Shown here piece after piece: positions 29,201-30,109 of a stretch of 64,000 bases of DNA. Source of the DNA: Escherichia phage FV3. The notes below the pieces were generated by a model. It worked only from the letters and a program-made list of their open reading frames with translations, was not told where the DNA came from and did no database searches. Where the stretch lies: sequence record NC_019517.1. One strand, written 5' to 3'. The translations under genes were made by a program, and so were the position numbers. How positions within the stretch are numbered: the stretch's first letter is position 1; each line of letters begins with the position of its first letter.

Positions 29201-29277
29201 TGGTCTCCACGGAGTGATTCGAACACTCGACCTCCTGATCCCAAATCAGGCGCTCTACCAAGCTGAGCTACGCGGAG
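29201..29277 (-). tRNA. tRNA-Pro: tRNA-Pro (anticodon UGG)
   Basis: Hand-folded cloverleaf: 7-bp acceptor stem, T-arm with TTCGAAT loop, anticodon loop UUUGGGA, encoded CCA. Confidence 0.7.
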
Positions 29278-29288
29278 TATTTATAATT

Positions 29289-29363
29289 TGGTGGCCCTGG
29301 GTGGAATTGAACCACCGTCTGGCGATTATGAGTCGCTTGCTTGAACCTTCCAGCTACAGGGCC
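29289..29363 (-). tRNA. tRNA-Met: tRNA-Met/Ile2-type (anticodon CAU)
   Basis: Cloverleaf with perfect acceptor stem GGCCCTG/CAGGGCC, anticodon loop CUCAUAA, encoded CCA. Met versus lysidine-Ile cannot be distinguished. Confidence 0.65.
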
Positions 29364-29364
29364 A

Positions 29365-29440
29365 TGGTGCTGATAGCAGGACTCGAACCTGCAACCTATT
29401 GATTACAAATCAATTGCACTACCAATTGTGCTACATCAGC
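29365..29440 (-). tRNA. tRNA-Thr: tRNA-Thr (anticodon UGU)
   Basis: Cloverleaf: acceptor GCTGATG/TATCAGC, D-arm GCAC/GTGC, anticodon stem ATTGA/TCAAT with loop UUUGUAA, T-loop TTCGAGT, encoded CCA. Confidence 0.7.
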
Positions 29441-29447
29441 AAAAAGG

Positions 29448-29544
29448 TGCTAGGTGATGGAATCGAACCACCTATGTATTCAACGACTACCTCGTCTATT
29501 TTCAGGATTAAAAATCCTCGCCCTTGCCAAAGGGCTTACCTAGC
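29448..29544 (-). tRNA. Atypical tRNA-like gene (97 nt; possible UUU/Lys anticodon, about 30-nt extra arm, no encoded CCA)
   Basis: Perfect 7-bp acceptor (GCTAGGT/ACCTAGC), canonical D-arm (GCCC-TTTGGCAA-GGGC) and T-arm (GGTGG-TTCGATT-CCATC), but anticodon stem is 4 bp plus a mismatch and an unusually long region lies between anticodon arm and T-arm. Confidence 0.4.
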
Positions 29545-29642
29545 TCAGTATGTTGACCATGTTGCTAGTCGGCGATGACGACTGTAACATTTGATAATCC
29601 GGTTCTGCTTCCGGCTTTCGCTTAATTACAAGGTCAACAATA

Positions 29643-29733
29643 TGGCTGAGGGTAATGGAATCGAACCATCATCGAGTCATCCTCAACGGGACGGTTTTCA
29701 AGACCGCTTGAGCACCATTGCTCCCTACCCTCA
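29643..29733 (-). tRNA. tRNA-Ser: tRNA-Ser (anticodon UGA), class II
   Basis: 91-nt cloverleaf with long variable arm; anticodon stem GCGGT/ACCGT, loop CUUGAAA; encoded CCA. Confidence 0.65.
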
Positions 29734-29847
29734 TTTATAAACAATACTGATAATGACACTGATTTTCGAGCAGTTAGTGACTAGTATAAACGACGATAAA
29801 TATCAATGCCATTATCTGTATGATTTATGCATTTAAAAATATAAATT

Positions 29848-30013: not shown

Positions 30014-30109
30014 ACTGGGTGGCTTTCTTTTACACCTTAGCCGCCAGAAAAGGTGGGAGACCATGTTTACAATATTACACTGTTAAGCAAAGTTTGTCAA
30101 GAAAATATT

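What the first reader, a model, noticed from the sequence alone, without database searches (positions are those of the whole stretch)
29448..29642. Atypical 97-nt tRNA-like gene and structured spacer inside the tRNA cluster
Between tRNA-Thr and tRNA-Ser lies an element with flawless acceptor, D- and T-arms but an irregular anticodon arm (4 bp plus mismatch, loop UUUUUAA) and about 30 nt between anticodon arm and T-arm, too long even for a class II variable arm. It may be a tRNA with an insertion, a pseudo-tRNA or a tRNA-like regulatory RNA. The next 98 nt (29545-29642) contain a perfect 5-7-5 hairpin (agtcg-gcgatga-cgact) enclosed by a longer-range inverted repeat (TTGACC...GGTCAA), suggesting a processing element or small RNA.
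Basis: seen in the sequence. Interest (0 to 1): 0.5.

Follow-up and report, generated by a model that had tools for sequence, protein, structure and literature searches.

The report
Two conserved odd RNAs in phage tRNA operon
In the tRNA gene cluster of an rV5-like coliphage sit two conserved, unnamed structured RNAs: a tRNA look-alike that almost certainly cannot read codons, and an 87-nt three-stemmed RNA module that also occurs, unannotated, in phage lambda and P1-like phages.

Summary
The window is an rV5-like Vequintavirus. All features lie on the minus strand, inside one tRNA operon.

(1) Bases 29544-29446 form a tRNA-like RNA. Homologues occur in every Vequintavirinae genus sampled. The cloverleaf is 99.6% paired, and 10 pairs show compensatory changes. 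These include the tertiary elbow pair G19:C56, which becomes U:A. Comparison shows the "anticodon" stem is 5 bp, so the loop is only 5 nt here and 6 nt in most relatives. The loop sequence is not conserved. A 31-41 nt extra region has invariant single-stranded flanks. This is a selected tRNA mimic that does not decode. It is neither a canonical tRNA nor a decaying pseudogene.

(2) Bases 29638-29552 form a three-way-junction module with a nearly invariant core. Its closing helix has at least five unrelated sequences, and 10 of 11 pairs covary. The same module lies in lambda between tR' and S. It also follows tRNA-Ser(UGA) in the P1-like phage D6, and occurs in a Salmonella siphovirus and 426 of 5426 E. 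coli genomes. It matches no Rfam family.

Function is not shown for either RNA. Both are probably cut out by tRNA-processing enzymes and act in trans. Two natural isolates, V18 and JES2013, have lost both, so they are accessory.

The parts
29643..29733 (-). tRNA-Ser(UGA). It is the upstream neighbour of the module and forms a shared cassette with it.
   Evidence: ARAGORN. About 90% identical to tRNA-Ser(UGA) of the P1-like phage D6, where the same module also follows directly.
29552..29638 (-). Portable three-way-junction RNA module (the 'structured spacer'), P1 to P1.
   Evidence: The covariance model built from 17 diverse copies hits here at 98.6 bits, E 1e-25, with a single copy in the window. 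RNAalifold independently predicts the same junction.
29628..29638 (-). P1 5' strand, GUUGACCUUGU. It pairs with 29552-29562 (ACAUGGUCAAC).
   Evidence: 10 of 11 P1 pairs show changes on both sides across at least five unrelated P1 sequences. One of these is in a second Vequintavirus contig (AGGAUCA/UGAUCCU).
29615..29627 (-). J1/2, AAUUAAGCGAAAG. The first 10 nt are invariant. GCGA (29618-29621) is complementary to the P3 loop UCGC (29572-29575), so a pseudoknot is possible.
   Evidence: Invariant columns in alignment A5. All four candidate pseudoknot pairs are invariant, so covariation gives no test. The pseudoknot is an inference.
29599..29614 (-). P2 hairpin, CCGG-AAGCAGAA-CCGG.
   Evidence: The stem is invariant in all 17 representatives, and the loop varies at one position. 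A scan for variants with a changed outer pair found none.
29563..29589 (-). P3a (UGU/GCA) plus P3 hairpin AGUCG-UCAUCGC-CGACU.
   Evidence: Pair 59:71 of A5 covaries (G:C in 14 sequences, U:A in 3). P3a is kept through G:U changes.
29446..29544 (-). tRNA-like RNA (non-decoding tRNA mimic). Acceptor 29544-29538 / 29455-29449. D arm 29535-29520. Stem-loop at the anticodon position 29518-29504 (loop UUUUA, 29513-29509). Discriminator A at 29448, then CC at 29447-29446.
   Evidence: Alignment A4 of 12 sequences is 99.6% paired, and 10 pairs show compensatory change, including the tertiary 19:56 pair.
29473..29503 (-). Extra region of the tRNA-like RNA: GAAAAUAG, then hairpin ACGA-GGUAG-UCGU, then UGAAUACAUA.
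   Evidence: The flanks are invariant or nearly so across genera. The hairpin has a different sequence and length in each lineage but always forms.
29365..29440 (-). tRNA-Thr(UGU), the downstream neighbour. tRNA-Thr is next to or near the tRNA-like RNA in all genera sampled.
   Evidence: Annotated loci.
30072..30100 (-). Sigma-70-like promoter of the tRNA operon (TTGACA-17-TAATAT).
   Evidence: The rV5 GenBank record annotates the homologous site as P(tRNA).

Best explanation
The interval contains two separate structured non-coding RNAs, each under selection. Both are co-transcribed with the phage tRNAs from the promoter near 30072-30100.

(A) tRNA mimic, 29544-29446(-). It keeps a full L-shaped tRNA body: acceptor, D and T arms, and the D-loop/T-loop elbow pair. 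Most relatives also encode U73-CCA. RNase P and the 3' trimming and CCA enzymes should therefore process it like a tRNA. The hairpin at the anticodon position has a loop of only 5-6 nt with no conserved sequence, so it should not decode. The conserved parts outside the tRNA body are the single-stranded flanks of a large extra arm (GAAAAUA ... GAAUACAUA). These are the likely functional surface. The proposal is that it acts in trans as a tRNA look-alike. It would engage a tRNA-binding host or phage factor as a decoy, a cofactor or an amino-acid carrier outside translation.

(B) Three-way-junction module, 29638-29552(-), 87 nt. The flanking tRNA processing events would release it: trimming after tRNA-Ser, and RNase P cleavage at G29544. 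The closing helix P1 only has to be a helix. The nearly invariant junction and loops, possibly pseudoknotted, carry the function. That function is most probably recognition of a macromolecule common to enterobacterial hosts.

The module is portable. It came into, or left, the rV5 lineage as a tRNA-Ser(UGA)+module cassette shared with P1-like phages. In temperate phages it sits among the small-RNA-rich region between Q and the lysis genes.

Shown: homology, structure, covariation, distribution, and dispensability in natural deletion variants. Inferred: expression, processing sites, action in trans, and the partners.
For: tRNA mimic:
- ARAGORN gives 'tRNA-???'. The Rfam tRNA model passes its gathering score only with a 26-nt insertion.
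- Homologues are found in Vequintavirus, Avunavirus, Seunavirus, Mydovirus and Henunavirus, in 183 phage records.
- Alignment A4 is 99.6% paired and 10 pairs have compensatory changes. The covariation score is 0.45 against 0.17 in shuffles, with 0 of 500 shuffles reaching it, and at most 0.08 when partners are slid.
- The tertiary pair G19:C56 becomes U19:A56 in four phages.
- The closing pair of the stem at the anticodon position covaries (C:G in 8, U:A in 3). This fixes the loop at 5-6 nt. Loop sequences are UUUUA, UUAUA, CAUCCA, CAGCCA, CCUCCA, CCUCAA and CAUCAAA.
- An extra hairpin is predicted in all 11 sequences folded, with different sequences.
- GenBank annotations disagree: Lys, OTHER, Pseudo, TERM and ???(atcc).

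Module:
- 83% identity to lambda 44866-44952.
- 61 distinct copies in the loci fetched, from prophage, P1-like and Vequintavirus contexts.
- Present in 426 of 5426 E. coli genomes, with 121 places on plasmids.
- 10 of 11 P1 pairs covary. The covariation score is 0.34 against 0.12 in shuffles (0 of 500), and at most 0.07 when slid.
- RNAalifold gives the same junction.
- G:U pairs favour the tRNA-sense strand.
- The model finds one copy per locus.
- The tRNA-Ser(UGA)+module cassette is shared with D6.
- A tRNA cluster also precedes the module in contig L065.
Against: - No expression or end-mapping data were available.
- The core of the module (P2, the candidate pseudoknot, most of P3) never varies. 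Its internal structure therefore rests on one covarying pair plus thermodynamics, and part of the sequence identity could reflect recent horizontal transfer rather than selection.
- No partner was identified for either RNA.
- Neighbouring ORFs give no clue.
- Vequintaviruses V18 and JES2013 carry deletions that fuse the 5' part of tRNA-Tyr to the 3' part of the tRNA-like RNA. They lose tRNA-Ser, the module and the 5' part of the tRNA-like RNA. Neither element is therefore needed for propagation.
- The rV5 lineage has A73 and no complete encoded CCA, unlike most relatives. The acceptor-end function may not be uniform.
Confidence: 0.45

Rival explanations
1. The 97-nt element is a working, if odd, decoding tRNA. 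It would be tRNA-Lys(UUU), as annotated in the BASEL phages, or a suppressor, as annotated 'tRNA-TERM' in some records. The last stem pair would open to give a 7-nt loop, UUUUUAA.
For: If U31-A39 opens, the loop has U33, anticodon UUU and A37. Several GenBank records call it tRNA-Lys or TERM. The rest of the body is a good tRNA. The Erwinia phage homologue has a true 7-nt loop, CAUCAAA.
Against: The 31:39 pair covaries (C:G in 8 sequences, U:A in 3), so it is selected to be paired. Most relatives would then have loops of 6 or 8 nt, never 7, and they lack U33. The 'anticodon' differs between close relatives: UUU, UAU, UCC, GCC, UCA. The variable region of 31-41 nt exceeds that of any class II tRNA. 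ARAGORN cannot assign an anticodon.
Confidence: 0.1
2. The module is a cis-acting processing or insulation element. Its long closing helix would be an RNase III (or RNase E-guiding) site that separates neighbouring RNAs in polycistronic precursors. It would have no function of its own after cleavage.
For: It always lies between other structured RNAs: tRNA-Ser and the tRNA-like RNA here, tRNA-Ser and an STnc100-like RNA in D6, and downstream of tRNAs in L065. Other Vequintavirinae genera have a different spacer of about 190 nt at the neighbouring position. That spacer is also closed by an 18-20 bp covarying helix. From memory, not tested here: RNase III cleaves the T4 species 1 RNA that is encoded beside the T4 tRNA genes.
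Against: A mere cleavage helix does not explain a 65-nt core that is nearly invariant across unrelated phages while the helix itself is free to change. P1 is only 9-11 bp in lambda and rV5, which is short for RNase III.
Confidence: 0.2
3. The module is an Hfq- or ProQ-dependent base-pairing small RNA or sponge. It would resemble the prophage small RNAs (AgvB, AsxR, PasA-D, STnc100) of the same lambdoid region, or the tRNA-spacer sponge 3'ETS-leuZ.
For: It lies in the Q-to-lysis 'moron' region, where such RNAs cluster (PMC4104026; bioRxiv 10.64898/2026.05.13.724894). It is directly 5' of an STnc100-like sequence in D6 (39.6 bits). It has invariant single-stranded stretches.
Against: It has no intrinsic terminator or U tail in any context, whereas all Pas RNAs and AgvB have one (same papers). 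It does not match the Rfam models AgvB, AsxR or STnc100. The invariance extends to stems and loops alike, which is not typical of seed-type small RNAs.
Confidence: 0.15
4. The module is a self-cleaving ribozyme or a ligand-binding aptamer of an undescribed class.
For: It is a compact three-way junction with invariant junction and loop nucleotides and a possible pseudoknot (GCGA:UCGC). The closing helix is sequence-free. It occurs widely in phage contexts, where several small ribozyme classes were first found.
Against: It matches no known ribozyme or riboswitch model, even at E = 10. No conserved cleavage-site signature was recognised. Nothing was tested biochemically.
Confidence: 0.08
5. Both elements are non-functional relics: a degenerate tRNA gene, and a remnant of horizontally transferred DNA.
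For: V18 and JES2013 have lost them and are viable. Annotators call the tRNA-like element 'Pseudo'. The module core shows little variation, as expected after recent transfer.
Against: Compensatory changes occur in four helices and one tertiary pair of the tRNA-like RNA across five genera. The closing helix around the module has been recreated independently in at least five sequence contexts, including two within Vequintavirus.
Confidence: 0.04

Closest known systems
Class II (long-variable-arm) tRNAs and tRNA-Sec
   Same: It has a 7-bp acceptor stem, a 4-bp D stem, and a T arm with a UUCGAUU loop. It keeps the G18G19/C56 elbow and a hairpin in the variable region. The Rfam tRNA model passes its gathering score. 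Relatives give weak tRNA-Sec hits of 23-29 bits.
   Different: The loop at the anticodon position is 5-6 nt and is not conserved. The variable region is 31-41 nt, with 7-10 nt conserved single strands on both sides of the hairpin. Position 8 is A and the first D-loop base is U. It lacks the 8/5 acceptor/T geometry, the 6-bp D stem and the UCA anticodon of tRNA-Sec. tRNA-Sec scores are far below the gathering score of 47.
Phage T4 stable RNAs C and D (species 1 and 2), encoded beside the T4 tRNA genes (recalled from the literature, not tested here)
   Same: They are stable non-tRNA RNAs of unknown function, co-transcribed and co-processed with phage tRNAs.
   Different: No sequence similarity was detected. 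T4-like phages match only the true tRNAs of this cluster. The structures were not compared.
Non-decoding tRNA-like RNAs: the tRNA-like domain of tmRNA, the tRNA-like domain of YrlA, and 'tRNA-Other' of Bacillus cereus (PMC3399842)
   Same: They have a tRNA-shaped body without a decoding function and act outside normal decoding.
   Different: There is no tag reading frame, and ARAGORN finds no tmRNA. The only Rfam YrlA hit is a chance overlap with real tRNAs. This RNA retains a hairpin at the anticodon position and adds an extra arm.
STnc100 (RF02076) and PasD, prophage small RNAs of the lambdoid Q-to-lysis region
   Same: They share the genomic neighbourhood. In D6 an STnc100-like sequence starts about 20 nt after the module. 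Both are enclosed by a long-range helix that begins (G/A)UUG(U/C)GGUGAA in many copies.
   Different: The module does not match the STnc100 model. It has no terminator. It has a different internal architecture: a three-way junction with an invariant core.
tRNA-precursor spacer RNAs with functions of their own (3'ETS-leuZ and internal-spacer sponges of E. coli; recalled, not tested)
   Same: A spacer of a tRNA operon that could be released by tRNA processing and act in trans.
   Different: Those are short, largely unstructured and specific to one host locus. This is a structured, portable module also found outside tRNA operons, as in lambda.

Membership tests
Canonical elongator tRNA | Cloverleaf with a 7-bp acceptor, D arm, T arm and the elbow tertiary pair | tested here: met
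   99.6% of cells are paired. Compensatory changes occur in all helices and at 19:56. Rfam tRNA scores 35.5 bits against a gathering score of 29.
Canonical elongator tRNA | 5-bp anticodon stem closing a 7-nt loop with U33 and a purine at 37, and an anticodon conserved among orthologues | tested here: not met
   The stem closing pair covaries, which leaves 5 nt (rV5, Av-05), 6 nt (most genera) or 7 nt (Erwinia phage). Position 33 is A or C in most. The triplets differ between relatives. ARAGORN reports '???'.
Canonical elongator tRNA | Variable region of 4-5 nt (class I) or about 10-24 nt (class II) | tested here: not met
   31 nt here and up to 41 nt in relatives.
Canonical elongator tRNA | Aminoacylation and participation in translation | not testable with these tools
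   This needs acid-gel northern blots, tRNA-seq or in-vitro charging.
tRNA-Sec (RF01852) | 8/5 or 9/4 acceptor/T geometry, 6-bp D stem, UCA anticodon, and a score above the gathering score | tested here: not met
   The geometry is 7/5. Covariation of 19:56 places G18G19 in an 8-nt D loop. No tRNA-Sec hit is listed for the element in the window itself; its relatives score 23-29 bits against 47.
tmRNA | tRNA-like domain plus a tag reading frame | tested here: not met
   ARAGORN finds no tmRNA in the window. The only tmRNA-family Rfam hit in the region (RF04321, 17.4 bits, E 0.88) lies over tRNA-Pro and tRNA-Met at 29237-29316, not over the element or the spacer.
STnc100 / AgvB / AsxR prophage small RNAs (Rfam) | Match to the family covariance model, and an intrinsic terminator | tested here: not met
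   No hit on the window spacer or on the lambda copy, even at E = 10. No terminator follows the module in any context.
Known self-cleaving ribozymes and riboswitches (Rfam 15) | Match to any family model | tested here: not met
   Lax scans of the module alone in two contexts gave only noise of at most 14 bits.
The module family defined here (model R1) | P1 helix of free sequence, invariant AAUUAAGCGA junction, CCGG-AANCAGAA-CCGG hairpin and UCAUCGC-loop hairpin | tested here: met
   The window copy scores 98.6 bits, E 1e-25, over the full model length. All features are visible in alignment A5.
MITE-like DNA element with terminal inverted repeats | Terminal repeats conserved in sequence between copies | tested here: not met
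   The terminal helix differs completely between contexts but stays complementary. It uses G:U pairs on the sense strand only.

The most novel reading that the evidence does not exclude
Both RNAs could found undescribed functional classes.

The module would be a portable, pseudoknotted three-way-junction RNA. It is present even in the late leader of phage lambda. It would bind or act on a conserved enterobacterial factor, as an aptamer, a ribozyme or a protein decoy.

The Vequintavirinae tRNA mimic would be a dedicated non-ribosomal tRNA. One option is an aminoacyl carrier: most relatives keep U73, G1:C72, C2:G71 and a CC doublet in the loop, which from memory resembles the E. coli GlyRS identity set. 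The other option is a decoy for toxins or defence nucleases that attack tRNA acceptor ends or bodies.
Probability: 0.25. Interest if true: 0.85.

Novelty: new variant of a known kind. Interest (0 to 1): 0.62.

Why it matters
Phage tRNA clusters are usually read as codon-usage aids or, more recently, as spare parts against host nucleases that cut tRNA. This cluster also carries two conserved RNAs that are not tRNAs.

One is a tRNA mimic kept by a whole subfamily of large virulent enterobacterial phages that includes therapy and biocontrol candidates. Databases annotate it five different ways.

The other is a structured module shared between virulent and temperate phages. It lies, unannotated, in the late leader of lambda, the best-studied phage, and in about 8% of complete E. 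coli genomes.

Lambda genetics makes the module directly testable, and the BASEL collection does the same for the tRNA mimic. Either RNA could reveal a new way for phages to manipulate host RNA metabolism or defence. At the least, the result gives a covariance model and a correct annotation for both.

Tried and rejected
1. A canonical tRNA with other boundaries. ARAGORN and Rfam give none.
2. ARAGORN's alternative stem (AUUUU/AAAAU with anticodon AUCC). It is not possible in relatives and was rejected.
3. A small ORF in the spacer. There are 16 codons here and 15 in lambda, but a 1-nt indel shifts the frame between them, so it is not coding (read).
4. Known RNA families for the spacer. None matched in four contexts. 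AgvB and the Pas RNAs were rejected because they have terminators and different sizes.
5. A literature search for the core sequence strings found nothing relevant. The rV5 genome paper lists six tRNAs and does not mention this element.
6. Homology between the tRNA-like RNA and the lambda sequence downstream of the module. The local alignment was no better than shuffles.
7. Targets in the window complementary to GAAUACAUA. There were 2 matches, one of them the element itself, which is not above chance.
8. Variants of the module with a changed P2 pair in viral contigs. None were found.
10. More distant tRNA-like homologues by pattern search. Only the known Vequintavirinae were found.
11. Neighbouring proteins, including the T5.085-like ORF that precedes the cluster in other genera. 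They have no Pfam domain, and that ORF has no homologue in the window.
12. The model R1 found no second or divergent copy in 820 kb of fetched loci.

Full report
**Source and layout.** The window is an rV5-like Vequintavirus, 99.5% identical over 1 kb to Escherichia phage APECc02. All features of the finding are on the minus strand, inside one tRNA operon.

The transcription order is:
- tRNA-Arg(UCU), 30013-29939
- tRNA-Tyr, 29934-29848
- tRNA-Ser(UGA), 29733-29643
- a 98-nt spacer, 29642-29545
- the atypical element, 29544-29446
- tRNA-Thr(UGU), 29440-29365
- a CAU tRNA
- tRNA-Pro

A sigma-70-like promoter lies at 30100-30072 (annotated as P(tRNA) in rV5).

**Check of the observation.** Every detail is present at the stated coordinates.
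- ARAGORN reports 'tRNA-???' with a four-base anticodon.
- The Rfam tRNA model scores 35.5 bits (gathering score 29), but it treats 26 nt as an insertion.
- Single-sequence folding gives a cloverleaf plus an extra hairpin, with z = -3.66.
- The spacer folds with z = -2.62.
- The 5-7-5 hairpin is at 29567-29583.
- The TTGACC/GGTCAA repeat, at 29553-29558 and 29632-29637, is part of an 11-bp helix.

**The tRNA-like RNA is conserved across a phage subfamily.** BLAST found it in 183 phage records. It occurs in rV5-like phages, Av-05, PVP-SE1, SSE-121, NINP13076, EspYZU15, GAP31, 4MG, Klebsiella BIS47, Raoultella Ro1 and Erwinia pEp_SNUABM_01. Together these cover five genera of Vequintavirinae. 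It always lies in the tRNA cluster near tRNA-Thr.

Twelve distinct sequences were aligned (A4) and scored against the cloverleaf.
- 99.6% of cells are paired, against 31-45% when partners are slid.
- 10 of 22 pairs show compensatory changes.
- The covariation score is 0.45, against 0.17 in shuffles, and 0 of 500 shuffles reach it.

The D-loop/T-loop tertiary pair covaries as well. UUUGGCAA with UUCGAUU becomes UUUGUCAA with UUAGAUU in four phages, which is G19:C56 changing to U19:A56. The molecule is therefore selected to fold into a true L shape. This excludes a decaying pseudogene.

**It is not a canonical decoder.** The fifth pair of the stem at the anticodon position covaries (C:G in 8 sequences, U:A in 3). 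The loop is therefore:
- 5 nt in rV5 (UUUUA) and Av-05 (UUAUA)
- 6 nt in most genera (CAUCCA, CAGCCA, CCUCCA, CCUCAA)
- 7 nt only in the Erwinia phage (CAUCAAA)

Position 33 is A or C in most, and the triplet is not conserved. This explains the contradictory database labels Lys, OTHER, Pseudo, TERM and ???(atcc).

The features conserved besides the tRNA body are:
- A at position 8 with U as the first D-loop base, which I read as a swapped 8:14 pair (an inference)
- G26
- the single strands GAAAAUA and (U/A)GAAUACAUA, which flank an extra hairpin

The hairpin differs in sequence and length in each lineage but always forms. Most relatives encode U73-CCA. The rV5 lineage has A73-CC.

The rV5 genome paper lists six tRNAs and does not mention this element.

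**The spacer is a portable module.** The minus-strand sequence 29627-29543 is 83% identical to phage lambda 44866-44952, between orf-64/tR' and S. It also matches the P1-like phage D6 and Salmonella siphovirus ST1UNAM. It occurs in 426 of 5426 complete E. coli genomes, in prophages and P1-like plasmids, and is never annotated.

A pattern scan of viral contigs gave more than 100 further copies. Among all loci fetched there were 61 distinct versions.

Seventeen representatives were aligned (A5). The architecture is:
- a closing helix P1
- a junction beginning with the invariant AAUUAAGCGA
- hairpin P2, CCGG-AAGCAGAA-CCGG
- a junction containing CAAAUG
- a short helix P3a
- hairpin P3, with the invariant loop UCAUCGC

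P1 has at least five unrelated sequences. They are GUUGACCUUGU/ACAUGGUCAAC here, AGGAUCA/UGAUCCU in a second Vequintavirus contig, GUUGUGCUG/CAGCACAAC in lambda, a GGUG/CACC variant of that helix, and 14-bp helices in D6 and ST1UNAM. Ten of its 11 pairs show changes on both sides. One P3 pair covaries, and P3a is kept through G:U changes. The overall covariation score is 0.34, against 0.12 in shuffles (0 of 500 reach it) and at most 0.07 when partners are slid.

RNAalifold predicts the same three-way junction without guidance. G:U pairs are on the tRNA-sense strand. This argues for an RNA structure rather than a DNA repeat.

GCGA in the first junction is complementary to UCGC in the P3 loop. 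All eight bases are invariant, so the pseudoknot remains an inference.

No Rfam family matches the module in any context, even at E = 10.

A covariance model (R1) finds exactly one copy in the window (29552-29638, 98.6 bits). It finds one per positive locus and none in the other Vequintavirinae genera.

**Context of the module.**
- In D6 the order is tRNA-Ser(UGA), module, then an STnc100-like sequence (RF02076, 39.6 bits, E 2e-7).
- The D6 and rV5 tRNA-Ser genes are about 90% identical, and in both the module follows. A tRNA-Ser+module cassette has therefore moved between a virulent myovirus lineage and temperate phage-plasmids.
- In contig L065 three tRNAs precede the module.
- In lambdoid prophages the module lies in the Q-to-lysis region, which is known for Hfq-bound small RNAs (PMC4104026; bioRxiv 10.64898/2026.05.13.724894). 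The module lacks the terminator that those RNAs share.

**Dispensability.** Vequintaviruses V18 and JES2013 carry deletions that join the 5' part of tRNA-Tyr to the 3' part of the tRNA-like RNA. These remove tRNA-Ser, the module and the 5' part of the tRNA-like RNA. Both RNAs are therefore accessory. That fits a role that depends on host or condition.

**Mechanism.** The following is shown: two structured RNAs under purifying and compensatory selection, lying in one tRNA transcription unit.

The following is inferred.
- RNase P cleavage at G29544 and 3' trimming of tRNA-Ser would release the module.
- Normal tRNA processing would release the tRNA mimic.
- The tRNA mimic keeps every element recognised by enzymes that handle the tRNA body and acceptor end, but it has lost the decoding loop. 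It most likely acts as a look-alike for a tRNA-binding factor, through its acceptor end, its elbow and the conserved extra-arm flanks.
- The module has a free-sequence closing helix and an invariant core. This fits an RNA whose junction and loops are read by a conserved partner.

The rivals are set out in the rival-explanations section with the evidence for and against each. They are a decoding Lys or suppressor tRNA, a pure processing site, an Hfq-type small RNA or sponge, a new ribozyme or aptamer, and relics.

One lead is weak and rests on memory. Most relatives keep U73, G1:C72, C2:G71 and a CC doublet in the loop, which resembles the E. coli GlyRS identity set. This was not tested.

**Novelty.** tRNA-like RNAs, and stable non-tRNA RNAs in phage tRNA clusters such as T4 RNAs C and D, are known kinds. 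These two families are not in Rfam 15, were not found in the literature searched, and are annotated inconsistently or not at all. I rate the finding as a new variant of a known kind. The chance that one or both represent a new functional class is modest.

Noticed in passing
L007 about 2105-2845 (Salmonella phage ST1UNAM); L260 about 757-1350 (Salmonella phage Akira); L261 about 745-1290 (Klebsiella phage VLCpiS13a); L008 about 2090-2170 (E. coli STEC308 prophage): These are unannotated non-coding units with their own TTGACA-N17-TAGATT promoter and a terminator. They contain a tmRNA-like tag frame (GCA AAC GAT GAT ... GCG GCG TAA TAG). The encoded peptides are ANDDVVLMAA, ANDDVILMAA, ANEDRFLMAA and ANDDLMLMAA. 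A tRNA-like domain follows, with a D-arm-like hairpin, a GUUCGAUUC T arm and a GUUGUGG/CCACAAC acceptor-like stem. ARAGORN finds no tmRNA. Rfam gives only sub-threshold tmRNA_permuted hits (27-32 bits against 47). In 11 prophage loci the tag lies 330-515 nt upstream of the module on the same strand. In ST1UNAM the module sits between the tag and the tRNA-like domain. This may be an undescribed phage tmRNA-like RNA with an unusual gene order.
   Followed up: partly
L007 2355-2372 and 2575-2595; L260 about 1001-1028; L261 about 1001-1024; lambda L003 about 1180-1200; many siphoviruses: A 'boundary box', GUGCUCUU(U/A)(C/U)CGUUGUG(G/C)UG, is 96-100% conserved in Salmonella, Klebsiella and Aeromonas siphoviruses and in lambdoid prophages. 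Its left half pairs with an upstream AAGAGCAU, and its right half pairs with a downstream CA(C/G)CACAAC. Successive stem-closed RNA modules are therefore chained together: the module of this report, STnc100-like RNAs and the tRNA-like domain. In L008 about 2040-2075 the right half folds on itself with nothing inserted.
   Followed up: partly
L132 707-890; L133, L137, L138 and L139 about 690-890; L135 and L136 about 707-895: In the other Vequintavirinae genera the tRNA-like RNA is followed by a spacer of about 190 nt. An 18-20 bp terminal helix closes it, and the helix sequence differs between genera but stays complementary (for example AAACAUCUUAUGUACGGG/CCCGUACAUAAGAUGUUU in PVP-SE1). The GAP31 copy folds with z = -2.98. 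It has no Rfam match and no similarity to the module of the window. This is a second unannotated structured RNA next to the tRNA mimic.
   Followed up: partly
L270 655-745 (phage V18); L271 640-730 (phage JES2013): These are natural deletion hybrids. The 5' part of tRNA-Tyr is fused to the 3' part of the tRNA-like RNA, and tRNA-Ser and the module are lost. JES2013 also has an unrelated insertion of about 130 nt after tRNA-Arg.
   Followed up: yes
window 29289-29363 (-): The CAU-anticodon tRNA is annotated tRNA-Met in rV5 but tRNA-Ile (codon ATA) in the BASEL phage MaxTheCat. Which is right depends on lysidine modification, so its identity is unresolved.
   Followed up: no
window 29734-29847 (-): A 114-nt AT-rich gap lies between tRNA-Tyr and tRNA-Ser. 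No predicted gene or RNA family falls in it. It contains a weak promoter-like site at 29812-29783.
   Followed up: no
L003 about 1370-1420 (lambda about 45035-45085): A strong terminator-like hairpin followed by UUUU (GGCAGG...CCUGCCGUUUUGCCC) lies about 100 nt upstream of lambda S and downstream of the module. It may be the lambda counterpart of the PasA/AgvB-type small RNAs described in pathogenic E. coli prophages. Rfam gave no hit at E of 10 or less.
   Followed up: no
phage records MG0656xx: About 18 records named 'Campylobacter phage' are 99% identical to rV5-like coliphages over this region. They are probably mislabelled or come from contaminating coliphages.
   Followed up: no
L006 1772-2477 (phage D6): The feature table returned for D6 lists its tRNAs on the strand opposite to the one found by ARAGORN and Rfam in the same locus orientation. 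This is either a strand error in the record or an error in how the table was turned.
   Followed up: no
window 29643-29733 compared with rV5 L001: The tRNA-Ser of the window differs from that of rV5 by paired changes at the end of the acceptor stem (UGAGGGU...ACCCUCA against GGAGGGU...ACUCUCC). These look like compensatory substitutions within the species.
   Followed up: no
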